A DNA stretch of 64,000 nt from an uncultured Chitinophaga sp. (GCA_964505065.1 CAZDGF010000005.1:6850-70849), one strand, 5' to 3'. Shown: positions 50,007 through 64,000, counted from the first letter of the stretch. The notes: generated by a model not told the origin, from the sequence alone. Numbers and translations: made by a program.

Positions 50007-50059
50007 AATGCTTACAAATATAGGTTTCTTTTGTGTTAATAGTTGTTTGTTTATGGAAT

Positions 50060-50110
50060 ATTTGTACCTTTGCTGTACCTTACTATGGGTTGAAAGGCAA
50101 ATTTGTACCT
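50060..50110 (+). repeat. Direct copies of ATTTGTACCT (candidate recombinase arm-type sites), left end
   Basis: atttgtacct at 50060-50069 and 50101-50110, and gctgtacct at 50072-80. The same 10-mer occurs twice at 57053-57073. Confidence 0.5.
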
Positions 50111-50173
50111 CAACCCATTTTTTAGGTTTACAAACTTGACACTTTTAAACACTTAAATACAGTATAGTACAAA

Positions 50174-50737
50174 ATGAGTTCAAATATTAAGATACAACGT
50201 ATTTGCCAGCATTGCGGCAATGAGTTCACAGCACGAACCACCACCACGCTTTACTGTTCACACCGTTGCAATAGTGCAGCATACAAAGCCAAACAAAGGG
50301 CTGGTAAGGTTGAGCAAAGCAATAAGGAAACCCAGCGTATAAAAAGCCAGCCTATTGAGGAACTAAAGGCAAAGGAATTTTTAAGCGTTACACAGGTTTC
50401 AAAATTAATCGGCTGTTCCCGACAAAATGTTTACAACCTTATCAATACTGGTAAGCTGAAAGCGACAAACATTTTATTAAAGAAAACTATTGTAAAGCGT
50501 TCAGACCTTGACAAACTATTTAAAGAGCCAACCAACCGAACACCTCAACCCGAAAAGCAACCCGAACAAATGCAGTTTGATATTTCCGACTGTTACAACC
50601 TTACAGAAATACAAAGTAAATACGGTATTTCAGAAACAGCCTTACAAAACCTTATTAAACGAAACAGCATACCCAAAATAAAAAAGGGCTGGTTTGCATA
50701 CGTTCCGAAAACGGTAATTGATAAACTATTGAGTTAA
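50174..50737 (+). CDS. DNA-binding protein with N-terminal zinc-ribbon-like CxxC pairs and two excisionase/MerR-type HTH modules
   Basis: CQHCGNEF...CSHRC, LSVTQVSKLIGCSRQNVYNLINTGKL, NLTEIQSKYGISETALQNLIKRNSI. Confidence 0.6.
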   Translation: MSSNIKIQRICQHCGNEFTARTTTTLYCSHRCNSAAYKAKQRAGKVEQSNKETQRIKSQPIEELKAKEFLSVTQVSKLIGCSRQNVYNLINTGKLKATNILLKKTIVKRSDLDKLFKEPTNRTPQPEKQPEQMQFDISDCYNLTEIQSKYGISETALQNLIKRNSIPKIKKGWFAYVPKTVIDKLLS

Positions 50738-50757
50738 ACACTAAAGCATAAAAGACA

Positions 50758-51900
50758 ATGGCAATAAAAGTAAAATTAAGAGAAAAGAAAATTACAGGGA
50801 ACAGGCAAAGTTTGTATTTAGATTTTTACCCAGCTATACCACACCCCGAAACAGGCGAACCAACCCGAAGGGAATTTTTAGGGCTGTACCTTTTTGATAA
50901 GGCAAAGAACCCTATTGATAAGCAAGGCAACAAAGAAACTTTACAGCTTGCCGAACAGATAAGGCAGAAACGTGAAAACTATTTAAACAAGCCCGAAATT
51001 TACACAGGGTACGAAAAGGAACAACTAAAAATTAAAGAGCAGGGCGAACAGAATTTTGTTACCTACTTTAAAAGCCTTGCTGACAAACGCAAAGCCAGCA
51101 ACCACGATAACTGGGTTTCAGCTTACAATTACCTTGAAACATTTACAAAGGGAAATTTGAAGTTTGCCGACCTCAACGAAAAGTTTTGTAATGAGTTCAA
51201 AGAGCATTTACTCACTACCAAAAGCAATAAGAGCAACAAAGTAACCCTTGCCCAAAATTCAGCCGTTTCCTATTTCAATAAACTGAAAGCAACTTTAAAG
51301 CAAGCCTATAAAGACGGGTATTTACCAAGCGACCTAAACGGCAAAATACAACCAGTTAAACAGGCAGAAACACAAAGAAACTTTTTAACCATTGAGGAAC
51401 TGAATAGCCTTGTAAAAACAGAATGTAATAACCCTTTATTGAAACGTGCAGCCCTATTTTCAGCCCTCACAGGGTTGAGGTTTTCAGATATTAAAAACCT
51501 TGTTTGGGGCGAACTGGAATACATTGAGGGCAACGGTTATTTTATTCAGTTCAAACAACAAAAAACTAAAGGGGTTGAAATGATGCCTATTTCTGAACAG
51601 GCTTACAGCTTGCTGGGTGAATGTAAAGAACCCACCGACAACGTATTTGAGGGGCTTACCTATTCTGCATACGAAAACAAACACCTGTACCAATGGATTG
51701 GAGCAGCAGGAATAACAAAGGATATAACCTTTCATTGTTTCAGGCACACGTTTGCCACCTTGCAACTATCAAAGGGAACAGATATTTACACCGTTTCAAA
51801 AATGCTGGGACACCGTGAACTTAAAACTACACAGATTTACGCAAAGATTATAGACAAAACCAAACGTGATGCAGCCGACAAAATTAAATTAGAAATGTAA
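50758..51900 (+). CDS. int: Tyrosine site-specific recombinase (Bacteroidota phage-integrase family with SAM-like N domain)
   Basis: LTGLRFSDIKNL (Arg), HCFRHTFAT (HxxR), LGHRELKTTQIYAKI (His ... Tyr). Confidence 0.9.
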   Translation: MAIKVKLREKKITGNRQSLYLDFYPAIPHPETGEPTRREFLGLYLFDKAKNPIDKQGNKETLQLAEQIRQKRENYLNKPEIYTGYEKEQLKIKEQGEQNFVTYFKSLADKRKASNHDNWVSAYNYLETFTKGNLKFADLNEKFCNEFKEHLLTTKSNKSNKVTLAQNSAVSYFNKLKATLKQAYKDGYLPSDLNGKIQPVKQAETQRNFLTIEELNSLVKTECNNPLLKRAALFSALTGLRFSDIKNLVWGELEYIEGNGYFIQFKQQKTKGVEMMPISEQAYSLLGECKEPTDNVFEGLTYSAYENKHLYQWIGAAGITKDITFHCFRHTFATLQLSKGTDIYTVSKMLGHRELKTTQIYAKIIDKTKRDAADKIKLEM

Positions 51901-51919
51901 CTAACATAAAAAATTACAA

Positions 51920-52822
51920 ATGAATAATACAAAAGGCTGGTACAATATTGTACAAAAAATAAATACAGAACTTGAAAATCGAACAAAAAGCGACAATCCC
52001 CACCCGATGGACTTGCTTTTAAAAGAGCAGACAAATATAGTTATTCAACTTTTTAATGAATGTGAGTTTGTAGGTTTTTCAAAAACCGACCCCAAAGCTG
52101 AAACCATTGTTGAAAATGTTTTAAAATGCGTTCAAAATTCACTAGCTAATAAAATTAGCGATGTACCCGACAAACCTTTTTTTAATTTGTATTTAGTTTT
52201 ACTTTTTTTGGAAAAGGTTTTGCAGATTATTAAAAATGAATACGAAAGCAACCTAAATATAAGTATAGAATACCTTGAAAATATCATTTATCAAAGTAAT
52301 GACTATGAAAATTTAGTTGAGGCTTCTCGAAGCATAGGTCGAAACATTATAAATAATAAACAACACCCCGATTTTGGAATATTAAAAAAACACATTGCGG
52401 AACAACTTGAATACATTGAACGAAATAACAAAACAGTAAAAGCCTTACCGCCTCAACAAACGAAAACGGACAAACTTAAAGCTGAACTGGGTAAATACGG
52501 TTTCTTTGAATTACTAAAGGTTAAGCAACTTTCAGAGCCAAACAAACAAAGCCTTGTTGAAATGATAAGTACAAACGGGTTGCCTTACAGCATTGCAATG
52601 TTTGAATATTTAGGCTTTTTAAAGCACATAGAAAACGAACACTTTAAAACAAAATACAAGCTGAATAAAGAGGTTGCAAAATGGTTTAATTCAGATAAAG
52701 AAGGAAGGGCAGTTAAGGGCAATATTTCAAGCCTTTCAGAATACAGTAAAGAGGATAAAAGCAAATACACGGCACATACCCATAAAGAAACTGTAAAAAC
52801 CGATTATCAAAAATTGAAATAG
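51920..52822 (+). CDS. Hypothetical protein of the element
   Basis: 300 aa, no recognised motifs. Confidence 0.45.
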   Translation: MNNTKGWYNIVQKINTELENRTKSDNPHPMDLLLKEQTNIVIQLFNECEFVGFSKTDPKAETIVENVLKCVQNSLANKISDVPDKPFFNLYLVLLFLEKVLQIIKNEYESNLNISIEYLENIIYQSNDYENLVEASRSIGRNIINNKQHPDFGILKKHIAEQLEYIERNNKTVKALPPQQTKTDKLKAELGKYGFFELLKVKQLSEPNKQSLVEMISTNGLPYSIAMFEYLGFLKHIENEHFKTKYKLNKEVAKWFNSDKEGRAVKGNISSLSEYSKEDKSKYTAHTHKETVKTDYQKLK

Positions 52823-52894
52823 GGAGTACCCCCCTATTGTTGCCCCCAAAAGCCCCCTATACTATTGCACTATCAAATATAAAAAGATAGTCAA

Positions 52895-53248
52895 ATGGAA
52901 AATTTAACAGAGGGTTTAACCCTTGAAACATTACCGAAAGCCTTTACACAACTTACCAATGAAGTAAGCGAAATAAAAAGGCTGTTACTTGAAAAGAGTA
53001 ACGAACAACCAACCGAAACCGACCGTTGGTTTGACCTCAACGAACTTTGTATTTACCACCCCGACAAACCCAGTAAACCCACAGTTTACGGCTGGGTGAA
53101 TGTTGGTACTATTCCTGTACACAAAGGCGGTAAAAAGTTGAGGTTTCTAAAATCGGAAATTGATAACTGGTTAAGGCAAGGCAGAAAAAAGACGTTGGCA
53201 GAAACAGCCAGCGAAGCCGAACAATACTTAAAAAACAAAAAAGGGTAA
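52895..53248 (+). CDS. Excisionase/AlpA-like helix-turn-helix protein
   Basis: RWFDLNELCIYHPDKPSKPTVYGWVNVGTIPVHKGGKKLRFLKSEIDNWL. Confidence 0.7.
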   Translation: MENLTEGLTLETLPKAFTQLTNEVSEIKRLLLEKSNEQPTETDRWFDLNELCIYHPDKPSKPTVYGWVNVGTIPVHKGGKKLRFLKSEIDNWLRQGRKKTLAETASEAEQYLKNKKG

Positions 53249-53252
53249 AACT

Positions 53253-53456
53253 ATGCAGCAACATAATAAACCCCTTTTTGAAAATCTTAATTCTAACAAT
53301 GGCAAATTTAACGATTTATTTTCATTGTTAAATAACATCAAAACCTTTTCTGTAATATCTAAAAATAACATTTACAGACTTGCAGAAGCGTATCAAATTG
53401 AAGTTGATAGTTTAGCTTTTTTAATATCAATTTATGGAGGGGAGGTAAACTACTAA
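53253..53456 (+). CDS. Small hypothetical protein
   Basis: 67 aa. Its stop overlaps the start of the next gene (TAATG). Confidence 0.35.
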   Translation: MQQHNKPLFENLNSNNGKFNDLFSLLNNIKTFSVISKNNIYRLAEAYQIEVDSLAFLISIYGGEVNY

Positions 53457-54511
53457 TGTATAATTTTGAATTTGACAAATACGGTATAGGGGTTGAGGAT
53501 ATTAAAACCGAAGCTGAACAACTTTTAAAGCAAGGCAATGAAGCCAAAGAAAGCAAAGGACTGTTCACCGTGAAAACAGCCAGCCGTTGGATTGAACAGG
53601 CGAAAACCCGTCCCATTCCGCAAATGCTTTTTGGTGAATTTTGGTTTGAGGGTGAACTATGTATTTTGTTTGCCGACACTAATTTAGGGAAGTCAATTTT
53701 AGCCGTGCAAATAGGTAACAGTATAAGCAAGGGCGAACAAATACGGGGCTTTAAATTGGAAACACCAAAGCAGCCGATTTTGTATTTTGATTTTGAGTTA
53801 AGCGACAAACAATTTGAAAACCGTTATTCAATAAAATTTGAACAGCATTACAACTTTGATAATAACTTTATACGGGTTGAAATAAACCCCGATGCCTTCG
53901 CACCCGATAATATTTCAAATGAGGATTACCTCAACCATTCATTGGAACGAAGTATTATCGAAACAGGGGCAAAGGTTTTAATCATTGATAACCTTACTTA
54001 CCTCAAAAATGAAACTGAAAAGGCTAAAGATGCTTTGCCCTTAATGAAACATTTGAAAGCATTAAAAAACAAATACGGGCTTTCTATTTTAGCACTTGCA
54101 CACACACCAAAAAGGGACTTATCAAAACCAATTACCCGAAATGATTTACAAGGCAGTAAGATGCTAATAAACTTTTGTGATAGTTCCTTTTCAATAGGTG
54201 AAAGCCACAGCGACAAAAATTTACGCTACCTGAAACAGATTAAGCAACGAAACACCGAACAAATTTACGATGCTGAAAATGTTTGTGTTTGTCAAATTGA
54301 TAAGCCCCTCAATTTCCTATTGTTTGAGTTTGTGAATTTCGGTAAGGAATGGGAACACCTGAAACAGCAAACTGAAAAGGACAAAGAAAACCTGAACGAA
54401 AAAGTAAGCGAACTAAAGCAGCAAGGGCGAAGCCTTCGGGAAATAGGGGCTGAACTGGGTATTTCTCACATGAAAGTAAGTAGAATTTTAAAAGACTGTA
54501 ACATACTGTAA
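53456..54511 (+). CDS. RecA-fold (AAA_25/RepA-like) ATPase with C-terminal HTH
   Basis: Walker A ADTNLGKS, Walker B VLIIDNLTYL, and the C-terminal SLREIGAELGISHMKVSRILK. Confidence 0.7.
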   Translation: MYNFEFDKYGIGVEDIKTEAEQLLKQGNEAKESKGLFTVKTASRWIEQAKTRPIPQMLFGEFWFEGELCILFADTNLGKSILAVQIGNSISKGEQIRGFKLETPKQPILYFDFELSDKQFENRYSIKFEQHYNFDNNFIRVEINPDAFAPDNISNEDYLNHSLERSIIETGAKVLIIDNLTYLKNETEKAKDALPLMKHLKALKNKYGLSILALAHTPKRDLSKPITRNDLQGSKMLINFCDSSFSIGESHSDKNLRYLKQIKQRNTEQIYDAENVCVCQIDKPLNFLLFEFVNFGKEWEHLKQQTEKDKENLNEKVSELKQQGRSLREIGAELGISHMKVSRILKDCNIL

Positions 54512-54550
54512 CAACTGTAACACCCTGTTACAAGTGTTACACCTGTTACA
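54496..54550. promoter_or_regulatory. Iteron-like array: 3 x TGTAACA then 3 x TGTTACA at 9-10 bp spacing
   Basis: ctgtaacatactgtaacaactgtaacaccctgttacaagtgttacacctgttaca. It spans the stop of the ATPase gene and the gap before the primase-like gene. Confidence 0.55.
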
Positions 54551-54565
54551 CAAAAGAGGTAAACA

Positions 54566-55846
54566 ATGAGTGAACACAAATACATATTAGAACCATACAA
54601 GGGAATGAATACCCGTTACCATTGCCCCAGTTGCCAACAAAGGGATAAAACCTTTTCACTTTACATTGATACGGAAACAGGCGAACACATACACCCCACA
54701 GTTGGCAGGTGCAACCGTGAGAGTAATTGCGGTTATCATTACACACCTAAACAATTTTTTATTGATAATGGAGTTTTTAAAAGTTTCTGGACAGATACGC
54801 ACGCACGCACGAAAAATTCAGTTTGCATGATGAGTAGTAAGCCTGTTTCCTATATTCCAATTTTAGTATTTAAAGCCAGTCTAAAAGAATATGAAACAAA
54901 CCACTTTGTACAGTTCCTTATTAACCTATTCGGTGTTGATGTTGCCAGCCAACTGGTAAGCCGTTATTTTATTGCCACCTCAAAATATTGGAACGGTTCA
55001 ACTGTATTTTGGCAAATAGATGCAAAGGGCAAAGTAAGAACGGGTAAAATAATTCTTTACAGCCCCACCACAGGCAAAAGAGTAAAGAACCTTGAACTAC
55101 CTGTTTACTGGGTGCACAAAGCCCTTAAACAGCCCGAATTTGAATTAAGGCAATGTTTGTTTGGGGAACACTTACTAATTGATAAAACAAAACCCGTTGC
55201 CATAGTTGAAAGCGAAAAAACGGCTATAATTGCCAGCGTTTATTTGCCCCAGTTTATTTGGGTTGCCGTTGGCAGCCTTACCAACCTGAACGCTGAAAAG
55301 TGCAGTATATTAAAGGGGCGAACTGTTACACTATTTCCCGACCTCAACGGGTTTGATAAATGGAGCAGCAAGGCAAAGGAACTTTCACACCTTGCAATAT
55401 TTACCGTTTCCGATTTATTAGAACGTAAAGCCACCGAAGCAGAAAAGAAACAAGGGTTTGACCTTGCCGACTATTTAATAAAATACGATTACAAAGCCTT
55501 TGCTATACCTGAACCCGAAGCCACCGACCCCCCAGCCGTTCAAACATTGGTTGAGGTGAAACCATTTGAGCAACCCGAACCCGTTTACTATTTTAGCAAG
55601 CCCGAACAACCAAAAACTGAAAGCTGGGAACAGGATATTACTGAACTTGAAAACTACTTTACAAATATTACACTACCAACCCAGCCCATAAAGCTGAACA
55701 AGTGCAGCACAATAATAAACTGTTCCCTATTCATTGAAAGCCACTTTGCAACCGTGAAAGCGAACAACGGCAAACGAATCTTTTTACCATACCTCAACCG
55801 TTTACAAGAATTGAAAGGTATATTTCAAAGTTCCTTAATTATTTAG
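54566..55846 (+). CDS. Primase-like protein (N-terminal zinc-binding motif plus Toprim-like core)
   Basis: YHCPSCQQRDKTFSLYID...GRCNRESNCGYHYTPKQFF and the Toprim-like VAIVESEKTAIIAS ... LFPDLNG. Confidence 0.6.
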   Translation: MSEHKYILEPYKGMNTRYHCPSCQQRDKTFSLYIDTETGEHIHPTVGRCNRESNCGYHYTPKQFFIDNGVFKSFWTDTHARTKNSVCMMSSKPVSYIPILVFKASLKEYETNHFVQFLINLFGVDVASQLVSRYFIATSKYWNGSTVFWQIDAKGKVRTGKIILYSPTTGKRVKNLELPVYWVHKALKQPEFELRQCLFGEHLLIDKTKPVAIVESEKTAIIASVYLPQFIWVAVGSLTNLNAEKCSILKGRTVTLFPDLNGFDKWSSKAKELSHLAIFTVSDLLERKATEAEKKQGFDLADYLIKYDYKAFAIPEPEATDPPAVQTLVEVKPFEQPEPVYYFSKPEQPKTESWEQDITELENYFTNITLPTQPIKLNKCSTIINCSLFIESHFATVKANNGKRIFLPYLNRLQELKGIFQSSLII

Positions 55847-55856
55847 GTTATTCTCT

Positions 55857-56435
55857 ATGGGGCGACATTCAAACATTCCTACTCTATACGATTTCTGTAA
55901 AAAACTATCAATTTCAGACCTTAAACGGCTTAAATATTTAAAACCCAACCAATGCCAAAGTGGTGCTATAACGTGGAAAAACAATGGATTTAAAACAGGG
56001 AGTATCTCAATAAAGGTCAACACCTATTTAGAAAATCCTTATATTGAATTAAGTTATAGTATTAATCTTGTACCCCAAAATTATCGTATTCACTTTAAGT
56101 TATTGCCCTCAAATTTAGGCAAAGGGCTTGTTTGGTTATTTATTTGTCCAATTTCAGGCAGCTATTGCCGAAAGTTGTATTTATTAGATAAGCACTTTTG
56201 TCACCGAACAGCATATAATTTTGGAACATACCAAACCCAAACTTTAGGCACAAAGGATAAGTTTTTGATAAGGCAGTTTGATAAGATGACTAAAGCGAAT
56301 AACGCTAAAAGCAAACTATACAGTAAGAATTTTAAAAAGCATTACAACGGCAAACCCACAAAACAATATTTGAAGCTATTAAGGCAAATTGAAGCTGGGG
56401 GCAGTATTTCTGAAACTGAACTATTAATGAAATAA
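55857..56435 (+). CDS. Hypothetical cargo protein A (192 aa, Cys/His cluster)
   Basis: LFICPISGSYCRKLYLLDKHFCHRTAY. No family recognised. Confidence 0.45.
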   Translation: MGRHSNIPTLYDFCKKLSISDLKRLKYLKPNQCQSGAITWKNNGFKTGSISIKVNTYLENPYIELSYSINLVPQNYRIHFKLLPSNLGKGLVWLFICPISGSYCRKLYLLDKHFCHRTAYNFGTYQTQTLGTKDKFLIRQFDKMTKANNAKSKLYSKNFKKHYNGKPTKQYLKLLRQIEAGGSISETELLMK

Positions 56436-56483
56436 ATCAATTTTTTTTATATTGAGTTTTTGAATACTTTTGAAAAAAAAAAT

Positions 56484-57038
56484 ATGATAGGAATTATCCC
56501 AAATCCAAAAAAAACATTTCAAATTGAAAAAAAATTAGAAGATGTTCAATCGGCAATTGAAGATATTGTCCTTTTCGACACAAAATACACACTTTTAAAA
56601 ACAAATCCAATTCTAAATCTATTAACTTTTGAAGCAACAGAATTTTTAAGTTTAGGAGTTTTTATTGATATTACTTGTTTTACAGTTAATGAGAGCAGAA
56701 CTGAAATTACAATAGAAATTAAAAGAAAAGTTGGAACTTTCAATCAAAGTCATGAAGTAACACAGGCGAACCAACATATTACTAAAATTACTGATTTAAT
56801 ATCTGAAAGCATAAGTACAGATAAGGATATTAGAAAAGAAATGTTTGAAAATATCGAAATCCAAAAACAGAATAAAATTGATGCCGATAAACAAAGAATA
56901 GAAAGTATAAGAGAAAAAGGCAGAATTGAAAAACTTAATAACCCTATTTTATATTACACTAAACAGTCTTTGATTATTTTATTTAGTATTGGATTAATAA
57001 TAGGAGTTGTCTATGTAGTTATTAAAGTGTTAAAATAA
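56484..57038 (+). CDS. Hypothetical cargo protein B, C-terminally membrane-anchored (about 184-192 aa)
   Basis: C-terminal TM helix LIILFSIGLIIGVVYVVIKVL preceded by a charged helical stretch. The gene is very AT-rich. ATG at 56484 is preferred over the TTG at 56460. Confidence 0.45.
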   Translation: MIGIIPNPKKTFQIEKKLEDVQSAIEDIVLFDTKYTLLKTNPILNLLTFEATEFLSLGVFIDITCFTVNESRTEITIEIKRKVGTFNQSHEVTQANQHITKITDLISESISTDKDIRKEMFENIEIQKQNKIDADKQRIESIREKGRIEKLNNPILYYTKQSLIILFSIGLIIGVVYVVIKVLK

Positions 57039-57052
57039 TAATTTATTGTATT

Positions 57053-57073
57053 ATTTGTACCTTATTTGTACCT
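57053..57073 (+). repeat. Two tandem copies of ATTTGTACCT (candidate arm-type sites), right end
   Basis: 57053-57062 and 57064-57073, in the same orientation as the left-end copies. Confidence 0.5.
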
Positions 57074-57135
57074 TGTGTTTTTCAATTTTTCATAAAACGC
57101 TATTTATTAAACACTTAACAAAGTAAATTACTTTC

Positions 57136-57150
57136 TGTATCGGAAAGTAA
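57136..57150 (+). repeat. attR-like core (tgtatcggaaagtaa)
   Basis: Exact repeat of the mnmE 3' end. It is embedded in an inverted repeat gtaaattactttc (57123-57135) / gaaagtaatttac (57142-57154). Confidence 0.7.
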
Positions 57151-57347
57151 TTTACCTTCTTTTGTTAATTTGTTGTTTTTGTTAGGGTTTTAGTGTGTTT
57201 TTCTTGCACTTTGTCTTTGCCTCTATATACTTTTTTACTTATCATTGCAAACACTTTGGCCTACCCACTATATAAAATAGTTCAAGGCGAACCAATGGCA
57301 GATGAAGCAATAAAATCAGTATCTAAAAAAATAAAGAAAGCAAAGTA

Positions 57348-60300
57348 ATGGCATCAAACTTTTTTACAAATCAAGGCGAAAATACTCTCTATAAAAAATT
57401 TGTAGGTGTGTTTGAGCATATGCAAAACATTGAGTACTTCAAATCGGTAATAGGTTATTTTAGAGCATCTGGGTACTTCGCTGTTCGCAAACATTTTCCT
57501 GCTGATTTAAAAGTAAAAATTATTGCAGGTATCAATGTTGACCCATTTATTGCTTTAGCACAAAAGCAAGGTTTGTTATTCAACTCCAACGCTAAAGACA
57601 CCAAACAAAGTTTTATTGAAAGCATACAAGATGATATTATAAATGCCAAGTATAGTAAGAACATAGAAGAAGGCATATTGCAATTAATACAGGATATTGG
57701 CGATGGTAGAATAGAAATAAGAGCCCATAATTCTAAAAAATTACATTCTAAATTTTATATTTTCCTTTCTCCAAATTTTAATGAGCATAACCCAAATGGT
57801 ATGGTAATTATGGGTTCATCTAATCTTTCTGCACAGGGCTTAGGATTGGAAGATGTAGAACATAATTACGAAATGAATATTGAATTAAGAGATTATGACA
57901 ATGTTAAATTTGCCGATACAGAGTTTAATAAACTTTGGGAACAAAGCACACCTATATTGCCATTAGATGCACCAGCTTTAATTAAGAAAACCTATTTAGA
58001 TGCTACGCCTACACCGTTTGAATTGTATGTAAAATTCTTAATAGAATTTTTTGGTAAAAATATAGAGTATGACCCCGATAGCATTAGTGATATTCCACTA
58101 AAAAAGTTCAAAAAACTAAGCTATCAAATAGATGCAGTAAATCAAGGTTATGAATTATTATTAAAACACAATGGATTTTTTTTGGCAGATGTTGTGGGTA
58201 CAGGTAAAACAGTAATGGCAGCATTATTGGCTAAAAAGTTTATTATAACCAATGGTCCTAAAACAAGAATATTAGTAGTATATCCACCAGCATTAGAGAA
58301 GAATTGGACGAGTACTTTTAAAGATTTTGAAATACAAAATTATTGCGATTTTATTACCAATGGCAGTTTGGATAAAATTATTGATGGTAAGTTTAAGAAT
58401 GATAAAGAAAGCTACGATTTAATATTGGTAGATGAAGCCCATAAATTCAGAAACCACAAAAGCCAACAGTTTCAAAACTTACAAATAATATGTAAGTCAG
58501 GTAGAGAATTTATTGGAGGTGTAGAGGGTTTTGAAAAGAAAGTAGTTTTAATTTCTGCAACACCACTAAACAATAAGCCCGATGATATTTACAGATTATT
58601 GACATTATTTCAAGATGAAAGAAACTGTACGTTACCTTCTGTGCCCGAAAATAATTTGCAAAAATATTTCTACCCACTTACTCAAAAATATAAAGAAGAA
58701 ATAAGCCAAAATCCTATTAACCTTACTACCATACAAGAAATATTTAACGATATACGAGATAAGGTAATTAAAGACATTACTATTCGTAGAACAAGAACCG
58801 ATTTACAAAAGAATGATAGATACAGCAAGGATTTAATAGAACAAAAAATTTACTTCCCTAAAGTTGTAGAACCATTTACCAATGAGTACTTATTACCTAC
58901 AGATTTTGCAGAACTTTTTTTAGAAACCTTTAATACCATTATTGATAAAAATAAAATAGATTTTTATAGATACCAGGCAATTGCATATTTAACAGACGAA
59001 GCCAATAATGGAACATACCAAAATGCTGAAACAATTTCAAAGTCGTTGGCAAGCATAATGCACAATCAACTCATTAAGCGATTAGAAAGTAGTTTTTATG
59101 CGTTTAAAAAATCATTGCAAAAGATAACCACTTCCACAGGTTATATGATAGAAATGTATGAAAACAACAAAGTATATATAGCACCTGATACCTCTATTTC
59201 TGTAACCGATATGATGGATAAAGGATATACAGATGAAGAAATTGAATTTGAAATGCAGAAGAAAAATGATGAATTTAATCCACGAAATAGAACATTTGAA
59301 CAAAAGGATTTCAGCAAAGAATTAAAAGATAAAGATGGCAAAGTACGACCTAAATTTATTGATGGTCTTAAAAAAGACTTTGAATACTTAACAGCATTAA
59401 ACACAAGATGGCAAGCCATAGAAGAAAACAACGACCCTAAATGGGATGTATTTGTAGCGCTTCTAAAATCAGAATATTTTAATGCCGATAAAAACGAATT
59501 AGGCAAGTTAGTAATATTTACAGAAAGTGTAGATACTTTAAAGTATCTAACTGAAAGAATGAAAAATGAAACCACTTACAAAGTACTAAGTATCACTGCC
59601 GAAAATCGTAACCGAGATTTTGAAACGATTAGAGAAAATTTTGATGCTAACTATGAAAAAGCATTTAAAAATGATTTTGACATTATTCTCACTACCGATG
59701 TATTGGCAGAAGGTATCAACTTACATAGAGCCAATGTAATTGTAAATTACGATACACCGTGGAACCCTACAAAACTCATTCAGCGTTTAGGGCGTATCAA
59801 TCGTATTGGTAGCAAAGCCAATTTTATTTACAACTACAATTTTTATCCTTCGGAGCAAGGCGATGATAGAATAAACCTAAAAAATAGATCATTGGGTAAA
59901 TTACAAAGCAGCCACAGTGCTTATGGCGAAGACAATAGAATATATTCATTGCAAGAAATAATTGAGCAATGGGGAATGTTTGACCCTGATAAAAAAGACG
60001 ATGATGTAGATATAAGGAGCATTTATTTAGAGTTTCTGCGAAAGTTTAAAGAACAAAATCCAGAGCATTTTAATGCTATACAAAAAATGCCTTTAAAAAT
60101 TCGTTGCATAAGAGAATTAAAAATTAAAAATGAAGAATTAAAAATGAAGGAAAAAGATATATCATTTTTCACTTTTCATTCTTCATTATCCATTGCATTT
60201 GTAAAAAATGGAGATTCCAAAAATATTTATGTACATAGTAAAGGCAAATCCTATACAATACCATTTGAAAAAGCAGTAAAAATATTTGAAGCTCAAAAAT

Positions 60301-60731
60301 CAGAAGAAGGCATTTCCCCGAAAGAATCGGGACAGGTGCCAATACCAGAAATTCATTACAAACATATCAATCATATTATTGACCAGTTTGAAAGAGATAT
60401 TACCAAACCCGAAATGGTAGGTGGCAAAGACGATACAGATGACATTAGAGCTAATTCTGCTATCAAACATTTAAACAATTGGTTGGCTGATACGCTCATT
60501 ACAGAAGATGGCAAAGAGAGTGCAGTAAACCTATTGCCTTTGCTTAAAAATGGTACTTATGCCAACCTTACAAACGAAGTATTTAAAATGCGAAACGAAC
60601 CAGATGCTGATAAAATAGAAAGAGAACTCATAAAATTAGCACAGAAATACACAACCAAAATTAAGCGTCAGTTAAGAAAGGATATAACACCAGTAGAACC
60701 AAAAATAATCATTTCAGAAACTTTTATATAA
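57348..60731 (+). CDS. PLD (HKD)-family nuclease domain fused to SNF2-family helicase
   Basis: N-terminal KLHSKFYIF...VIMGSSNLSAQG (HxK ... GSxN). SNF2 motifs are ADVVGTGKT, LILVDEAHKFRN, ISATPLNN, TTDVLAEGINLHRANVIVNYDTPWNP and QRLGRINRIG. Confidence 0.85.
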   Translation: MASNFFTNQGENTLYKKFVGVFEHMQNIEYFKSVIGYFRASGYFAVRKHFPADLKVKIIAGINVDPFIALAQKQGLLFNSNAKDTKQSFIESIQDDIINAKYSKNIEEGILQLIQDIGDGRIEIRAHNSKKLHSKFYIFLSPNFNEHNPNGMVIMGSSNLSAQGLGLEDVEHNYEMNIELRDYDNVKFADTEFNKLWEQSTPILPLDAPALIKKTYLDATPTPFELYVKFLIEFFGKNIEYDPDSISDIPLKKFKKLSYQIDAVNQGYELLLKHNGFFLADVVGTGKTVMAALLAKKFIITNGPKTRILVVYPPALEKNWTSTFKDFEIQNYCDFITNGSLDKIIDGKFKNDKESYDLILVDEAHKFRNHKSQQFQNLQIICKSGREFIGGVEGFEKKVVLISATPLNNKPDDIYRLLTLFQDERNCTLPSVPENNLQKYFYPLTQKYKEEISQNPINLTTIQEIFNDIRDKVIKDITIRRTRTDLQKNDRYSKDLIEQKIYFPKVVEPFTNEYLLPTDFAELFLETFNTIIDKNKIDFYRYQAIAYLTDEANNGTYQNAETISKSLASIMHNQLIKRLESSFYAFKKSLQKITTSTGYMIEMYENNKVYIAPDTSISVTDMMDKGYTDEEIEFEMQKKNDEFNPRNRTFEQKDFSKELKDKDGKVRPKFIDGLKKDFEYLTALNTRWQAIEENNDPKWDVFVALLKSEYFNADKNELGKLVIFTESVDTLKYLTERMKNETTYKVLSITAENRNRDFETIRENFDANYEKAFKNDFDIILTTDVLAEGINLHRANVIVNYDTPWNPTKLIQRLGRINRIGSKANFIYNYNFYPSEQGDDRINLKNRSLGKLQSSHSAYGEDNRIYSLQEIIEQWGMFDPDKKDDDVDIRSIYLEFLRKFKEQNPEHFNAIQKMPLKIRCIRELKIKNEELKMKEKDISFFTFHSSLSIAFVKNGDSKNIYVHSKGKSYTIPFEKAVKIFEAQKSEEGISPKESGQVPIPEIHYKHINHIIDQFERDITKPEMVGGKDDTDDIRANSAIKHLNNWLADTLITEDGKESAVNLLPLLKNGTYANLTNEVFKMRNEPDADKIERELIKLAQKYTTKIKRQLRKDITPVEPKIIISETFI

Positions 60732-61724
60732 ATGGAAATAAGTAAAAACATATTAAACCAAATACAAAGCATAATAGCCAATGCTCAAGCAAGGGCTATT
60801 CGTAGTGTAGATACCGAAAGAGTGGCTATGTATTGGCAAATAGGCAAAGTAATATTTGAGGAAGAACAGCAAGGGAAAGACCGAGCCGAATATGGTACAT
60901 TTTTAATAAAATCTTTATCCGAACAGCTTGAACCTCAATTTGGCACAGGATTTTCATATCGACAATTAAATAGGTATAGGCAGTTTTTTAGACAATTTCC
61001 AATTGTGTCCGCACTGCGGACGCAATTCAGTTGGACACACTACAAAACACTTTTAAGTATTGATAATCAAGACAAAAAAGACTTTTACATTGCCGAAACA
61101 GAAAAAAATAATTGGACAGCAAGGCAGTTAGAACGCCAAGTAAATAGCCAGTTATTTGAACGCCTTTTATTGAGCAACGATGTACAATCGGTTTTAGCTG
61201 TAGCCAGAGAAGAAAAACTACCTACCGATGCCAAAGAAATTATAAAAGACCCAATGGTATTAGAGTTTTTGGGTTTACGAAGAGAAACTGCCTATTACGA
61301 AAAAGATTTAGAAACAGCCATTATTACACACCTACAAGATTTTATATTAGAGCTTGGCAATGGCTTTAGTTTTGTAGCAAGGCAAAAAAGAATACATATT
61401 GATGGCGATGAGTTTTTTATAGACCTTGTTTTCTTCAATCGTTTGTTGCAATGTTTTGTAATAATAGAAATAAAAACCACCAAACTTACCCACCAAGATA
61501 TTGGGCAATTGCAGATGTATGTAAATTATTATGATAGATTTGAAAAACAAGAATTTGAAAACCCAACCATTGGCATTCTATTATGTACCGATAAAAACGA
61601 TGCAGTAGTAAAAATAACCTTGCCCGAAAATAGTAGTAACATAATTGCCAGTAAATACCAACTGTATTTACCTACCGAAAAACAATTAATAGAAGAAATG
61701 AAAGTAGTAATTAATAGTAAATAA
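60732..61724 (+). CDS. DUF1016 / YhcG-like PD-(D/E)xK nuclease-fold protein
   Basis: RAIRSVDTERVAMYWQIGKVI, FSYRQLNRYRQFF, WTHYKTLL, and the C-terminal FIDLVFFNRLLQCFVIIEIKTTKLTHQDIGQLQMYVNYY (D...E.K). The ATG directly follows the helicase stop. Confidence 0.75.
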   Translation: MEISKNILNQIQSIIANAQARAIRSVDTERVAMYWQIGKVIFEEEQQGKDRAEYGTFLIKSLSEQLEPQFGTGFSYRQLNRYRQFFRQFPIVSALRTQFSWTHYKTLLSIDNQDKKDFYIAETEKNNWTARQLERQVNSQLFERLLLSNDVQSVLAVAREEKLPTDAKEIIKDPMVLEFLGLRRETAYYEKDLETAIITHLQDFILELGNGFSFVARQKRIHIDGDEFFIDLVFFNRLLQCFVIIEIKTTKLTHQDIGQLQMYVNYYDRFEKQEFENPTIGILLCTDKNDAVVKITLPENSSNIIASKYQLYLPTEKQLIEEMKVVINSK

Positions 61725-61747
61725 TTTTTTAAACCTACAATGTAACT

Positions 61748-62218
61748 ATGCCATTTATTAAAGTTTATATTCATTTTGTTTGGAGTACAAAAAACAGAGT
61801 GCCTTATTTGAATACAAAAGATATCAGGCAAAAAGTATGGAACCACATAAGAGAAAATGCAAAAGAAAAAGGAATATTTATTGATTTTATTAATGGGTAT
61901 AATGACCATTGCCATTGTCTGATATCATTAGGAGTTGACCAAACCATACAAAAAACAATGCAACTTATAAAAGGTGAATCTTCATTTTGGATAAATAAAA
62001 ATAACATTTTAAATCAATTACCTACAGATAAATCTGTAGGGACAACAAAATTTGAATGGCAAGATGAATATTTTGCAGTTTCAGTTTCGGAGTCAGCAAT
62101 AGATAAAGTTAGAGATTATATTAAAAATCAAGAACAACACCATAGCAAAAAAACATTTGAGCAAGAATATGATGAATTTATTGACAAATTTGGATTTCAA
62201 AAATATGATGATGAATAA
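61748..62218 (+). CDS. IS200-like Y1 (HUH) transposase, RAYT-like
   Basis: IHFVWSTKNRVPYL, the HUH-like DHCHCLISL, IKGESSFWINK, WQDEYFAVSVSE (catalytic Tyr region). Confidence 0.75.
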   Translation: MPFIKVYIHFVWSTKNRVPYLNTKDIRQKVWNHIRENAKEKGIFIDFINGYNDHCHCLISLGVDQTIQKTMQLIKGESSFWINKNNILNQLPTDKSVGTTKFEWQDEYFAVSVSESAIDKVRDYIKNQEQHHSKKTFEQEYDEFIDKFGFQKYDDE

Positions 62219-62225
62219 TATCATT

Positions 62226-62405
62226 TTGGCTAAAGCCAATGGAAATTTTATTTATTATCCTCCTGCTAAAGCAGGAGGCAATTCAGGAGGCAATTCAGGA
62301 GGCAATTCAGGAGGCAATTCACAATGAAATTCAGGGGGCAATTTGAATTGGAATGGGATTTATCCCATTCTAAAAAATAAAATTACAATTTTTGGCTTTA
62401 GCCAA
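62226..62405. repeat. REP-like hairpins and a 12-bp tandem repeat downstream of the RAYT-like gene
   Basis: ttggctaaagccaa (62226-62239), cctcctgc-taaa-gcaggagg (62259-62278), and caggaggcaatt x4 plus 2 degenerate units (62272-62343). Also gaatggga-ttta-tcccattc (~62350-62369) and ttggctttagccaa (62392-62405). Confidence 0.75.
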
Positions 62406-62421
62406 ACAAATAAAATAAACA

Positions 62422-64000
62422 ATGGACATTAAACAAATAAGAACAATCCTCGAAAGCCCTTATGATAGAAAGATTTGGAAATCCTTCATTCAAACACAGT
62501 TTACCAATAATAAACTCACCAAAGACGATGCCCCTTTAAATATTGGCAAAACCGATATTCACAAAGAATGTGTATCGCTTGGTTATTACGAAGTAAACGA
62601 ATATACCAAAATAGGCATTTTTGAAATACAATTAGCCGATAAAGTAAACCTTACGCGAAACCGTGTGGCATTGCGTAATCTTATTAAAAGCATTACACAA
62701 CAGGTAGCAGGCGCAATGGTAGTATTTGTACAAGGCGATAAATGGCGATTTAGTTATATTAGCAAACGCAAAGTTAGAAACAATGAAACCAATACAGTAG
62801 AAGATAAAGAAACAGCACCTAAGCGTTATACTTATCTTTTTGGCAATGGCGAAAAAGCCTTAACGGCTGCTATTCGTTTTGATAGGCTTATACAAAAACA
62901 AAAAGGCAATATATACCAGTACTTAACTCTTAACGATTTTGAAGAAGCATTTAGTGTAGAAAAATTAAGTAAAGAGTTTTTTGCGCAGTACAAAGAAATT
63001 TATGATGATTTTGTAGAGTTTATAACAGGTAAGCGATACATTAAAAAAGGGAGCAAATGGGTAGAAACACCAACCCACGAAGCACATTTTCAGTTACGCA
63101 ATTATTTTAACAACGATGAAAAACAAGCCCGTGATTTTTTTAAACGAATGATGGGGCGTATTGTGTTTTTATACTTTATACAAAAGAAAGGATGGTTGGC
63201 TTGTTCAATGAAAAATGAAGAATTAAAAATGAAAAATGCTGAAGTGGATTGGGGAAATGGCGACCAAGATTATTTATTCAACCTGTATGCAAATGCTAAA
63301 TATAAAGAAAGTTTTTACAGCGATTATTTAGTTCCTCTTTTTTTCAGCACCCTTAATAGTAGAGATGGCACTTTTGATGCCGACCCAAAATTATTCATTA
63401 ATCATTCTTCATTTTTCATTGATGGAAAATTCCCTTACCTCAATGGCGGTTTATTTGATAAAGCACAAGATTATAGATACGATAAAATTGCATTGCCTGC
63501 CCAAATATTTGATAAGCTATTTACTACCTTCAATAATTACAACTTTACTATTTACGAAGATGCACCCGATGAACACACCGTAGCTGTTGACCCTGAAATG
63601 TTGGGACATATTTTTGAAAACCTATTAGAAGATAACAAAGATAAAGGCGCATTTTACACCCCAAAAGATATTGTGCATTATATGTGCAGGGAGAGTTTGC
63701 ACAATTACATTTATACTTATACTGGCAATGAAGAAAACGAAGCGTTTAAAGCAAAACTAAAACTATACAACGACAATTTTGATATAAGCATTTTTGAAAA
63801 AAATGAAATTAAACTAATAGATAGAGCCTTAGAAGATGTAAAAATTTGCGACCCAGCCATAGGCAGTGGTGCTTTCCCTATGGGTTTGCTACACGAAATA
63901 TACCACTTAAAAATACCAATAGAAGACCAAAAAGGGCTGAAAGCCAAAAGCCCTGCCGACCTTAAAAAACACATTATAGAAGAAAGCATTTATGGTGTGG
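62422..64000 (+). CDS. Eco57I-like (type IIG / PglX / DrmMI-like) N6-adenine DNA methyltransferase, N-terminal 526 codons (continues past the window end)
   Basis: Absent from the ORF track because it runs off the window end. Manual translation gives MDIKQIRTILESPYDRKIWKSFIQTQF...GRIVFLYFIQKKGWL...FPYLNGGLFD...DPEMLGHIFENLLED...GAFYTPKDIVHYM...ICDPAIGSGAFPMGLL (SAM motif I). The frame is open to position 63999. Confidence 0.8.
   Translation, partial: MDIKQIRTILESPYDRKIWKSFIQTQFTNNKLTKDDAPLNIGKTDIHKECVSLGYYEVNEYTKIGIFEIQLADKVNLTRNRVALRNLIKSITQQVAGAMVVFVQGDKWRFSYISKRKVRNNETNTVEDKETAPKRYTYLFGNGEKALTAAIRFDRLIQKQKGNIYQYLTLNDFEEAFSVEKLSKEFFAQYKEIYDDFVEFITGKRYIKKGSKWVETPTHEAHFQLRNYFNNDEKQARDFFKRMMGRIVFLYFIQKKGWLACSMKNEELKMKNAEVDWGNGDQDYLFNLYANAKYKESFYSDYLVPLFFSTLNSRDGTFDADPKLFINHSSFFIDGKFPYLNGGLFDKAQDYRYDKIALPAQIFDKLFTTFNNYNFTIYEDAPDEHTVAVDPEMLGHIFENLLEDNKDKGAFYTPKDIVHYMCRESLHNYIYTYTGNEENEAFKAKLKLYNDNFDISIFEKNEIKLIDRALEDVKICDPAIGSGAFPMGLLHEIYHLKIPIEDQKGLKAKSPADLKKHIIEESIYGV

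What the first reader, a model, noticed from the sequence alone, without database searches (positions are those of the whole stretch)
57348..64000. PLD-nuclease/SNF2-helicase fusion + DUF1016 nuclease + Eco57I-like methyltransferase: candidate uncharacterised ATP-dependent restriction-like defence system beside an integration hotspot
Seen:
- A 1127-aa protein has an N-terminal HKD-type motif (LHSKFYIF ... GSSNLS) followed by a full SNF2 helicase core (GTGKT, DEAH, SATPLNN, QRLGRINRIG).
- A PD-(D/E)xK DUF1016-like gene starts at the nucleotide after the helicase stop.
- After an inserted RAYT-like gene comes a co-oriented large gamma-class adenine methyltransferase (PYLNGGLF, FYTPKDIV, DPAIGSGAFP) that runs out of the window.
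- The locus begins ~200 bp after attR of the mnmE-integrated element and is AT-rich.

Knowledge:
- Class 1 DISARM combines an SNF2 helicase (DrmD), an adenine methylase (DrmMI), DrmA, DrmB (DUF1998) and a separate PLD protein (DrmC).
- HKD nuclease domains fused N-terminally to Snf2-like helicases are a catalogued but experimentally uncharacterised architecture.

Inference:
- The methylase may mark self while the translocating PLD-SNF2 protein acts as the restriction component.
- This would be either a compact two or three-gene system distinct from types I-III and IIG, or a DISARM variant in which DrmC is fused to DrmD.
Basis: partly seen in the sequence, partly recalled or inferred. Interest (0 to 1): 0.8.

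Follow-up and report, generated by a model that had tools for sequence, protein, structure and literature searches.

The report
PLD-SNF2 nuclease-helicase paired with big methyltransferase
The window carries a widespread but experimentally untested two-gene restriction-modification-like defence module, a PLD-nuclease/SNF2-motor protein strictly paired with a large adenine methyltransferase, which databases currently label as a "Type IIG enzyme plus helicase-related protein"; it is a variant of a known kind, not a DISARM or BREX system.

Summary
In detail: all four genes and every quoted motif are present at the stated coordinates.

The core is two genes, not three.
- Every one of 20 loci found through the PLD-SNF2 protein has the large Eco57I/MmeI-type methyltransferase directly downstream.
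- Every one of 46 loci found through the methyltransferase has the PLD-SNF2 gene directly upstream, with a typical gap of about 8 nt.

DUF1016 is a facultative passenger. It sits between the two genes in 7 of 78 other pairs, from several lineages, and elsewhere in the locus in others. The Y1 transposase is an insertion.

Other optional parts are an upstream HTH regulator (20/74, reduced here to a 3' stub) and a downstream ABC-type ATPase (15/46).

No DrmA, DrmB, PglZ, BrxC, DUF499 or DUF3780 accompanies the pair, so it is not DISARM, BREX or Hma/Type-2 BR.

The HKD and helicase motifs are invariant across 79 homologs (31-94% identity). The methyltransferase N-terminal domain has no conserved nuclease triad and no fold match.

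Most likely mechanism (inferred): an ATP-dependent, Type ISP/III-like restriction system with the PLD-SNF2 protein as the cutting motor.

Two papers noted the pairing in passing. I found no paper that tests or names it.

The parts
57256..57348 (+). 3' stub (about 30 codons) of the small XRE-type HTH regulator gene that precedes PLD-SNF2 in relatives. The 5' two-thirds are missing here.
   Evidence: The translation ...IVQGEPMADEAIKSVSKKIKKAK* matches the C-termini of the HTH proteins of L004, L009 and L020. DNA homology with these relatives starts near 57250. The HTH gene is present in 20/74 loci. Its Pfam matches are HTH_3 and HTH_31; its PADLOC matches are capH and Control_protein.
57348..60731 (+). 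PLD(HKD)-SNF2 fusion protein, 1127 aa: the predicted restriction subunit (nuclease plus dsDNA translocase).
57666..57938 (+). Single HKD (PLDc_2) nuclease domain, aa 107-197, with H133, K135 and G156-S-S-N159.
   Evidence: Pfam PLDc_2 match above its gathering score. The residues are invariant in 79 homologs of 31-94% identity. A profile gives a weak match to the single-HKD nuclease Zucchini/PLD6 (E 0.027).
58113..59837 (+). SNF2-type SF2 ATPase core, aa about 256-830: GTGKT, DEAH, SAT and QRLGRINRIG.
   Evidence: Pfam SNF2-rel_dom, ResIII and Helicase_C. PDB matches to Snf2/Rad54, Chd1, ISWI and RapA. The motifs are invariant.
60114..60195 (+). In-frame 18-codon insertion built from an imperfect heptamer-repeat palindrome. 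It is specific to this copy.
   Evidence: Gap relative to the 92%-identical P0001. Inverted repeat 60122-60148 / 60168-60194. Tandem Repeats Finder rows.
60732..61724 (+). DUF1016/YhcG PD-(D/E)xK protein, 330 aa, with the D...EIK motif intact: a facultative passenger or accessory gene in the R-M slot.
   Evidence: Pfam and PADLOC PDC-S02 matches. The motif is visible. It lies between R and M in only 7/78 other pairs, from several lineages (26-87% identity to this one) and at variable positions.
61748..62218 (+). IS200-like Y1 transposase (RAYT-like), an insertion between the DUF1016 gene and the methyltransferase gene.
   Evidence: The same slot is occupied by a homolog in L010. Contigs of the same sequence from other samples break here.
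62272..62343 (.). 12-nt tandem repeat (CAGGAGGCAATT, 6 copies) in the spacer between the transposase and methyltransferase genes.
62422..64000 (+). N-terminal 526 aa of a roughly 1100-aa Eco57I/MmeI-type gamma-class N6-adenine methyltransferase: the predicted modification and specificity subunit. It runs off the window.
   Evidence: Full-length homologs of 984-1423 aa carry Eco57I, N6_Mtase, MmeI_Mtase, MmeI_hel and TaqI_C, and have NPPY or NPPF in 74/78.
62422..63111 (+). Family-specific N-terminal domain of the methyltransferase (aa 1-230), proposed as the docking or coupling domain for PLD-SNF2.
   Evidence: AlphaFold2 model with pLDDT 87. No PDB fold match, TM 0.25 or lower. No PDB or Pfam sequence match. 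No conserved D...(D/E)xK; the invariant residues are R109, T131, K134, R135, T137 and T148. The domain is always N-terminal in about 2200 clusters at 50% identity. Its second half is also present in the Thermus oshimai methyltransferase, which is paired with a distant PLD-SNF2.
57133..57150 (.). attR-like copy of the mnmE 3' end, inside a terminator-like hairpin. It is the right border of the integrative element 49937-57150 and is context, not part of the system.

Best explanation
The locus is a two-component, ATP-dependent restriction-modification-like defence module.

The large Eco57I/MmeI-type protein is the modification and specificity subunit. It reads a short target through its C-terminal TaqI_C-like recognition domain and methylates adenine (N6) to mark host DNA.

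The PLD-SNF2 protein is the restriction subunit. Its SNF2 motor translocates on double-stranded DNA using ATP, and its single N-terminal HKD domain cuts. One HKD motif is half an active site, so two copies must come together. This could be a constitutive dimer, as in SauUSI, or a collision of translocating complexes, as in Type I and Type ISP enzymes.

The family-specific N-terminal domain of the methyltransferase is proposed to recruit or license the PLD-SNF2 subunit at unmethylated sites.

In effect this is a Type ISP enzyme split into two polypeptides, with a PLD nuclease in place of the Mrr nuclease.

The HTH gene, the downstream ABC-type ATPase and the DUF1016 gene are optional add-ons: a regulator, and back-up or hitchhiker functions.

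What is shown: the gene pairing, the domain content and the conservation of active-site residues. What is inferred: methylation as the self mark, translocation-coupled cleavage, dimerisation of the HKD domain and the docking role of the N-terminal domain.
For: 1. Strict reciprocal linkage. 20/20 loci found with PLD-SNF2 have the methyltransferase next downstream. 46/46 loci found with the methyltransferase have PLD-SNF2 next upstream. In 70/78 pairs nothing lies between, with gaps mostly -1 to 30 nt.
2. The pairing persists from 92% down to about 31-35% identity and across phyla. Most loci are Bacteroidota, one is a Limnohabitans MAG, and cyanobacterial methyltransferase relatives exist. The Prevotella nigrescens record shows HTH, helicase-related protein and N-6 methylase in order. 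A 28%-identical PLD-SNF2 on a Thermus plasmid is again linked to an Eco57I-type methylase, in a different gene order.
3. Catalytic residues are invariant in 79 sequences: H133, K135, GSSN, GxGKT, DEAH, SAT and QRxGRxxR. NPPY or NPPF is present in 74/78 methyltransferases.
4. The methyltransferase N-terminal domain lacks a conserved PD-(D/E)xK triad and has no nuclease fold match. The only recognisable nuclease of the conserved pair is therefore the HKD domain.
5. Precedents exist. SauUSI is an ATP-dependent PLD-helicase enzyme dimerised through its nuclease domains (PMC7913695). HKD-SF2 fusions are interpreted as the restriction component of Type I/III-like systems (PMC10853773, PMC12839542). 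A Type IIG-annotated methyltransferase (Pin17FIII) in a P. intermedia locus with an upstream SNF2 gene gave m6A at GGYGAB when cloned (PMC5608340); I did not check that this protein belongs to the family.
6. Inverted methyltransferase or recognition-domain fragments downstream in 4/46 loci and in P. nigrescens fit specificity switching, as reported for such genes in PMC9881135.
Against: - No experiment exists on any member. Methylation-dependent protection and cleavage are both inferred.
- PADLOC and REBASE-derived models class the methyltransferase as a bifunctional Type IIG enzyme.
- Its N-terminal domain has an alpha-beta-beta-beta-alpha-beta order of elements and two mostly acidic positions: 60 (95% acidic) and 68 (77% acidic). 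A divergent intrinsic nuclease is therefore not excluded.
- The C-terminal 280 residues of PLD-SNF2 have no assigned function.
- In this window the HTH regulator is truncated, a transposase separates the genes, and the 3' half of the methyltransferase is unseen. Activity of this particular copy is unproven.
- An ABC ATPase in a third of loci hints that the mechanism may be more elaborate in some members.
Confidence: 0.6

Rival explanations
1. The methyltransferase is a self-sufficient Type IIG restriction-modification enzyme with its own N-terminal nuclease. The PLD-SNF2 gene is a separate, merely co-located defence or repair gene.
For: PADLOC REase_MTase_IIG is the best match, and it extends over the N-terminal domain (profile positions 10-397). 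The order of secondary-structure elements in the N-terminal domain is compatible with a restriction-endonuclease fold, and positions 60 and 68 are mostly acidic. The related Cj0031 restricts phage as a single gene (PMC4889913).
Against: Co-occurrence is 66/66 at operon spacing over deep divergence. No invariant acidic residue or lysine occurs in the N-terminal domain; position 70 is E, T, N or Q. No fold or sequence match to MmeI, BpuSI or any other nuclease was found. The first 75 residues, which hold the acidic positions, are dispensable in the Thermus relative.
Confidence: 0.1
2. It is a BREX-related or Hma-like system. Methylation marks self, but the PLD-SNF2 protein interferes without classical site-directed double-strand cleavage, for example by nicking or by blocking replication, possibly together with the ATPase.
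For: The best PADLOC match of the helicase is HmaA (8.8e-42, partial). Type-2 BR systems combine HKD-SNF2, an N6-methyltransferase and an ATPase (PMC12839542). HmaA acts through nickase activity (PMC11232893). An ATPase gene follows the methyltransferase in 15/46 loci. Weak PglX similarity exists.
Against: The ATPase is an ABC/SMC-like protein of about 650 aa, not DUF499, and it is absent from two thirds of loci. No DUF3780, PglZ or BrxC was found. The methyltransferase matches Type IIG models far better than PglX models.
Confidence: 0.17
3. It is a class 1 DISARM variant in which DrmC (PLD) is fused to DrmD (SNF2).
For: Partial similarity to DrmD (NCBIfam 155 bits; PADLOC 1.8e-36) and weak similarity to DrmMI.
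Against: The DrmD score is far below the 610-bit cut-off and covers only the helicase C-terminal half. No DrmA or DrmB/DUF1998 gene lies within 10 kb in any of about 100 loci.
Confidence: 0.03
4. It is primarily an epigenetic, phase-variable methyltransferase (a phasevarion). The helicase-nuclease acts in DNA repair or recombination rather than defence.
For: Inverted recognition-domain cassettes occur in some loci (PMC9881135). Cj0031-type enzymes affect gene expression (PMC4889913).
Against: The context is typical of defence islands: an integrative element, DUF1016 genes, short pAgo systems and transposases. The distribution is patchy and points to horizontal transfer. A conserved nuclease is strictly coupled to the methyltransferase.
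Confidence: 0.05

Closest known systems
Type ISP restriction-modification enzymes (LlaGI, LlaBIII), from my own knowledge of the family
   Same: The set of activities is the same: nuclease, SF2 dsDNA translocase, gamma-class N6-adenine methyltransferase and a target-recognition domain. Both have asymmetric single-strand methylation logic, and cleavage is expected after translocation or collision.
   Different: Here the activities are split over two polypeptides. The nuclease is a PLD/HKD domain rather than an Mrr-type PD-(D/E)xK domain. The motor is SNF2-like. The methyltransferase carries an extra family-specific N-terminal domain.
SauUSI (Type IV, PLD-helicase; PMC7913695)
   Same: It has an N-terminal single-HKD PLD nuclease followed by an SF2 ATPase. 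It is an ATP-dependent translocating nuclease that dimerises through the PLD domains.
   Different: SauUSI recognises modified cytosine through its own C-terminal domain and has no partner methyltransferase. No significant sequence match was found outside the helicase core.
Type-2 BREX-related (BR) systems / Hma (PMC12839542, PMC8565338, PMC11232893)
   Same: An HKD-SNF2 fusion effector is paired with an N6-methyltransferase, sometimes with an ATPase. These are also read as RM-like.
   Different: The defining DUF499 ATPase and DUF3780 are absent. The ATPase here is optional and ABC/SMC-like. The methyltransferase is of the Eco57I/MmeI ('Type IIG') lineage with a distinct N-terminal domain. The HmaA match is partial.
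Type IIG enzymes of the Eco57I/MmeI/Cj0031 lineage (PMC4889913)
   Same: The methyltransferase core, the helical spacer and the TaqI_C-like recognition domain are shared. Databases annotate this family as Type IIG.
   Different: No recognisable or conserved N-terminal PD-(D/E)xK nuclease is present. The gene is obligately paired with a separate nuclease-helicase gene.
CglI/NgoAVII ATP-dependent Type II systems (PMC4267653, PMC5737866)
   Same: A PLD-family nuclease works with an SF2 helicase-like ATPase and a methyltransferase. NTP hydrolysis is needed for cleavage.
Class 1 DISARM
   Same: It contains PLD, SNF2 and adenine-methylase domains.
   Different: No DrmA or DrmB is present. Similarity to DrmD and DrmMI is only at superfamily level.

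Membership tests
Class 1 DISARM | DrmA (large helicase) and DrmB (DUF1998) genes in the operon | tested here: not met
   No such conserved neighbour lies within 10 kb in 30 genome loci and 80 metagenome loci. The only recurrent neighbours are the HTH gene, DUF1016, an ABC-like ATPase, a 229-aa ORF and short pAgo genes. Downstream of base 64000 in the window itself cannot be seen.
Class 1 DISARM | DrmD-type SNF2 helicase and DrmMI methylase (equivalog-level match) | tested here: not met
   NCBIfam DISARM_DrmD scores 154.9 bits against a cut-off of 610 and covers aa 471-845 only. PADLOC DrmMI reaches E 6e-21 at best, far weaker than the Type IIG models at 1e-77 to 1e-153.
Hma / Type-2 BREX-related system | DUF499 AAA+ ATPase (HmaC) | tested here: not met
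   The ATPase downstream of the methyltransferase (15/46 loci) matches AAA_23 and SMC_N only. It does not match DUF499 or HmaC in Pfam or PADLOC.
Hma / Type-2 BREX-related system | Stand-alone DUF3780 gene (98% of Type-2 BR loci according to PMC12839542) | tested here: not met
   No conserved neighbour has such a match. The 229-aa ORF after the ATPase has no Pfam match.
Hma / Type-2 BREX-related system | HKD-endoDNase fused N-terminally to a Swi2/Snf2 helicase, plus an N6-methyltransferase | tested here: met
BREX | PglZ phosphatase and BrxC ATPase | tested here: not met
   Both are absent from all loci. The PglX match is 25 bits against a cut-off of 500.
Type IIG restriction-modification enzyme | Nuclease and methyltransferase in one polypeptide: an N-terminal PD-(D/E)xK domain with a conserved D...(D/E)xK | tested here: inconclusive
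   The N-terminal domain is modelled with confidence (pLDDT 87). It has no PDB fold match (TM 0.25 or lower) and no sequence match. No lysine occurs at the ExK position, and the acidic positions are not invariant. Biochemical nuclease activity was not testable.
Type IIG restriction-modification enzyme | Gamma-class N6A methyltransferase with helical spacer and C-terminal recognition domain | tested here: met
   Eco57I, N6_Mtase, MmeI_Mtase, MmeI_hel and TaqI_C in full-length homologs. DPAIGSGAF is present in the window. NPPY is present in the homologs.
Type III restriction-modification | Res subunit with an SF2 motor followed by a C-terminal PD-(D/E)xK nuclease, and a beta-class Mod subunit | tested here: not met
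   The nuclease is N-terminal and of the PLD type. The methyltransferase is gamma-class, of the Eco57I type.
Type ISP restriction-modification | All activities in a single polypeptide with an Mrr-type nuclease | tested here: not met
   There are two genes in all 78 pairs, and the nuclease is of the PLD type.
PLD-superfamily nuclease (Nuc/BfiI/Zucchini type) | HxK...GSxN motif, one copy per chain | tested here: met
   H133, K135 and G156-S-S-N159 are invariant. Pfam PLDc_2 matches once. Dimerisation was not testable.

The most novel reading that the evidence does not exclude
The pair is a distinct, so far unnamed class of ATP-dependent restriction-modification system, in effect a split Type ISP enzyme with an HKD nuclease. 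A previously undescribed N-terminal domain of an MmeI/Eco57I-lineage methyltransferase recruits a single-HKD SNF2 translocase, which can cut only after two motors meet. The short R-M intergenic slot acts as a recurrent landing pad for stand-alone PD-(D/E)xK genes (DUF1016, PDDEXK_3) that serve as back-up effectors.
Probability: 0.4. Interest if true: 0.55.

Novelty: new variant of a known kind. Interest (0 to 1): 0.45.

Why it matters
The N-terminal domain that marks this methyltransferase family forms about 2200 protein clusters at 50% identity. Members occur in environmental and human-associated Bacteroidota, including gut metagenome contigs and oral Prevotella.

These loci are presently annotated as 'Type IIG enzyme' next to an unexplained 'helicase-related protein'.

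If the PLD-SNF2 protein is the real restriction subunit:
- REBASE, PADLOC and DefenseFinder-style annotation of these loci would need correcting.
- A new ATP-dependent restriction architecture with a PLD nuclease would join Types I, III and ISP.
- The barrier these systems pose to genetic manipulation of Bacteroidota, already suspected for Prevotella in PMC5608340, could be addressed rationally.

It would not overturn any concept. Comparative-genomics groups already expect HKD-SF2 plus methylase modules to act as restriction systems.

Tried and rejected
1. Extending the window. The exact-protein look-up found only 6.6-10.5 kb contigs that end at the Y1 transposase. The genome-contig scan did not return the source genome; the best full-length relative is 92% identical (L013) and a partial one is 95% (L020). 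What lies beyond 64000 in this genome therefore remains unknown.

2. P0122 was listed without sources and looked like it might be the window's own full methyltransferase. It is a 78%-identical relative. Its locus has a truncated DUF1016 plus a PDDEXK_3 gene in the R-M slot.

3. A Foldseek search with the 526-aa truncated model gave only noise. A separate model of aa 1-232 also gave no match with TM above 0.25.

4. DUF4391 lead. A single weak Pfam match (E 0.009) to the N-terminal domain appeared in 1 of 20 members only. The intervening 412-aa ORF of the Thermus locus has no Pfam match. The lead was dropped.

5. Profile search of the PLD domain against PDB sequences gave only marginal Zucchini matches (E 0.027). 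SauUSI and NgoAVII were not retrieved.

6. The sigma-70 promoter scan is uninformative: 28 sites found against 28.9 expected, and Bacteroidota use other promoters.

7. No structure prediction of PLD-SNF2 itself was made. Both prediction jobs went to the methyltransferase N-terminus, so the C-terminal 280 residues remain unassigned.

Full report
**What is in the window**

Four co-oriented ORFs occupy 57348-64000.
- A 1127-aa protein at 57348-60731.
- A 330-aa protein at 60732-61724, which starts at the base after the preceding stop.
- A 156-aa protein at 61748-62218.
- After a 203-nt spacer that holds a 12-nt tandem repeat, an ORF from 62422 that runs off the window with 526 residues visible.

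Their domains are as follows.
- The first protein matches Pfam PLDc_2 (aa 107-197), SNF2-rel_dom, ResIII and Helicase_C.
- The second matches DUF1016_N plus YhcG_C.
- The third matches Y1_Tnp. NCBIfam places it above the IS200 cut-off but below the cut-off for REP-associated tyrosine transposases.
- The fourth matches PADLOC Type IIG models (3.8e-48). Its full-length relatives carry Eco57I, N6_Mtase, MmeI_Mtase, MmeI_hel and TaqI_C.

The att claim is also right. An 18-nt direct repeat at 49919-49936 (the 3' end of mnmE) and at 57133-57150 brackets an element with a tyrosine integrase. 'AT-rich' is marginal: GC is 0.317 for the locus against 0.333 for the window.

**The core is two genes**

I could not extend the contig. 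The exact-sequence look-up found only short contigs that break at the transposase. The species-representative genome collection holds only relatives, up to 92% identical over the full length. I therefore used relatives in both directions.

- Searching with PLD-SNF2 gave 30 genome loci. All 20 with at least 3 kb of downstream DNA have the large methyltransferase as the next gene on the same strand.
- Searching with an alignment of the methyltransferase N-terminal part gave 80 metagenome loci at 38-65% identity. All 46 with at least 4.7 kb of upstream DNA have PLD-SNF2 directly upstream.
- Of the 78 complete pairs, 70 have nothing between the genes, with gaps mostly -1 to 30 nt. Seven have a DUF1016 gene between them and one has a Y1 transposase.

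Annotated records show the same arrangement. In Prevotella nigrescens FDAARGOS_1486 the order is HTH regulator, 'helicase-related protein', 'N-6 DNA methylase'. On a Thermus oshimai plasmid a 28%-identical PLD-SNF2 is again linked to an Eco57I-type methylase, in the order methylase, hypothetical protein, helicase.

**Optional parts**

- HTH regulator. A small XRE-type HTH gene ends at the PLD-SNF2 start codon in 20/74 loci. In the window only its last 30 codons or so survive (57256-57348). This copy has therefore lost its presumed controller.
- ATPase. An ABC/SMC-like ATPase of about 650 aa (AAA_23, SMC_N) follows the methyltransferase in 15/46 loci.
- DUF1016. It is not a subunit. Where PLD-SNF2 is 72-76% identical to the window's, the DUF1016 in the slot is 26-87% identical to the window's. 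The window's own DUF1016 lineage sits downstream of the methyltransferase in L005 and L006, and upstream of PLD-SNF2 in L013. L005 has four DUF1016 paralogs. In L113 the slot holds a truncated DUF1016 plus a PDDEXK_3 gene. These look like hitchhiking or back-up nuclease genes of the kind PADLOC lists as candidate PDC-S02.

**What it is not**

No DrmA, DrmB/DUF1998, PglZ, BrxC, DUF499 or DUF3780 gene recurs next to the pair.

The DrmD match scores 155 bits against a cut-off of 610 and covers only the C-terminal helicase half. The PglX match scores 25 bits against a cut-off of 500.

The DISARM-fusion idea is therefore not supported. The locus also fails the defining features of BREX and of Hma/Type-2 BR systems, which need DUF499 and, for Type-2 BR, DUF3780 (PMC12839542).

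**Who is the nuclease**

In 79 PLD-SNF2 sequences spanning 31-94% identity, several motifs are invariant: H133, K135, G156-S-S-N159, GxGKT, DEAH, SAT and QRxGRxxR. The methyltransferases keep NPPY or NPPF in 74/78.

The methyltransferase N-terminal domain (aa 1-230) is the place where a Type IIG enzyme would carry its nuclease.
- It is modelled with confidence (pLDDT 87).
- It has no PDB fold match; the best TM-score is 0.25.
- It has no PDB or Pfam sequence match.
- Position 60 is acidic in 95% of sequences and position 68 in 77%. The position where the ExK lysine would sit is E, T, N or Q. The invariant residues are R109, T131, K134, R135, T137 and T148.
- The Thermus methylase shares only the second half of the domain (hhalign probability 92%) and lacks the part with the acidic positions.
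- The domain defines about 2200 clusters at 50% identity and is always at the N-terminus of proteins of about 1000-1300 aa.

An intrinsic nuclease is thus unsupported, although not excluded. The HKD domain is the only clear nuclease of the conserved pair.

**Mechanism (inferred)**

The simplest reading is an ATP-dependent restriction-modification system built like a Type ISP enzyme cut in two.
- The methyltransferase recognises a short site and methylates adenine.
- At unmethylated sites it engages PLD-SNF2, plausibly through its N-terminal domain.
- The SNF2 motor translocates.
- Cleavage needs two single-HKD domains to pair. They could form a standing dimer, as in SauUSI (PMC7913695), or pair on collision.

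HKD-SF2 fusions are already read this way in PbeA-type and Type-2 BR systems (PMC10853773, PMC12839542).

Inverted methyltransferase fragments downstream in four metagenome loci and in P. nigrescens fit the specificity-switching inversions reported for such genes in PMC9881135.

**Prior knowledge**

The pairing has been seen in passing.
- PMC9881135 lists Cj0031-like 'Type II RM' genes with an adjacent gene that has phospholipase D (cd09178) and SNF domains, or with an upstream DUF1016 gene.
- PMC5608340 notes an SNF2/RAD54 helicase upstream of a Type IIG locus in Prevotella intermedia 17F. It showed m6A at GGYGAB for one gene of that locus when cloned.

I found no paper that names, surveys or tests the pair. 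It is therefore a new variant of a known kind. It is widespread, mis-annotated and untested, but it is conceptually expected.

**State of this copy**

Both visible core ORFs are intact and all motifs are present. Several features raise doubts about activity.
- The HTH regulator gene is truncated.
- A Y1 transposase and a tandem repeat separate the DUF1016 and methyltransferase genes.
- Both core genes carry short in-frame insertions made of the same heptamer-repeat palindrome.
- The 3' half of the methyltransferase is outside the window.

Whether this copy is active cannot be decided from the sequence.

Noticed in passing
window 60114-60195, 60315-60335 (approx.), 63205-63237, 63390-63422: Both core genes carry short in-frame insertions absent from their closest homologs: +18 and +7 aa in PLD-SNF2, and +10 and +12 aa in the methyltransferase. 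Three of the four are built from one motif (AAAAATGAAGAATTAAAAATGAA, an imperfect 7-nt repeat) in direct or inverted orientation. The motif has 4 hits in the window against 0.01 expected. The origin is unexplained; a mini-palindromic element, a REP-like sequence tied to the neighbouring Y1 transposase, or slippage are possibilities.
   Followed up: partly
window 57256-57348: Only the last 30 codons or so of the HTH regulator gene that precedes PLD-SNF2 in relatives remain. The breakpoint (about 57250) lies about 100 nt to the right of attR (57133-57150). The truncation is therefore not simply the integration event.
   Followed up: partly
window 49937-57150: An integrative element lies at the 3' end of mnmE. 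It has HTH_17 proteins, a tyrosine integrase (50758-51900), an AAA_25 protein (53456-54511), a zinc-ribbon/DUF6371/DUF6965 protein (54566-55846) and two unannotated 192-aa ORFs. It is flanked by the 18-nt repeat TT(T/C)TGTATCGGAAAGTAA.
   Followed up: partly
window 62272-62343; L010 4187-4624: A 12-nt tandem repeat (CAGGAGGCAATT, 6 copies) follows the Y1 transposase. A homologous Y1 transposase occupies the same R-M slot in an unrelated locus (L010). Assemblies of the window sequence from other samples break exactly here.
   Followed up: no
L015 19709-22194, L019 18455-21267, L022 18948-21760: A short pAgo system (DUF4062/APAZ-type partner plus PIWI protein; PADLOC pAgo_I at 5e-178) directly follows the ABC-type ATPase in three loci. 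These regions are defence islands.
   Followed up: partly
L050, L053, L068, L082 (reverse-strand methyltransferase fragments just downstream of the methyltransferase); L115 14287-16913: Inverted partial copies of the methyltransferase 3' region lie downstream of the full gene. In P. nigrescens they flank an 'ATP-binding protein'. This looks like an invertible specificity-domain cassette (shufflon-type phase variation).
   Followed up: no
L005 13254-20989: One locus carries four DUF1016 paralogs (30-84% identical to the window's): one between R and M and three downstream of the methyltransferase.
   Followed up: partly
L113 3263-4140: The R-M slot holds a truncated DUF1016_N ORF followed by a PDDEXK_3 gene. 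This suggests turnover of small nuclease genes at this position.
   Followed up: no
L116 (Thermus oshimai plasmid pTHEOS02, 50428-57213): A distant PLD-SNF2 (28% identity) is linked to a 744-aa Eco57I-type methylase and a 412-aa ORF without Pfam match, in the order methylase, ORF, helicase. It may be a three-subunit version of the same system.
   Followed up: partly
L009 18681-19370, L011 18666-19346: A conserved ORF of about 229 aa without any Pfam or PADLOC match follows the ABC-type ATPase in four loci.
   Followed up: no
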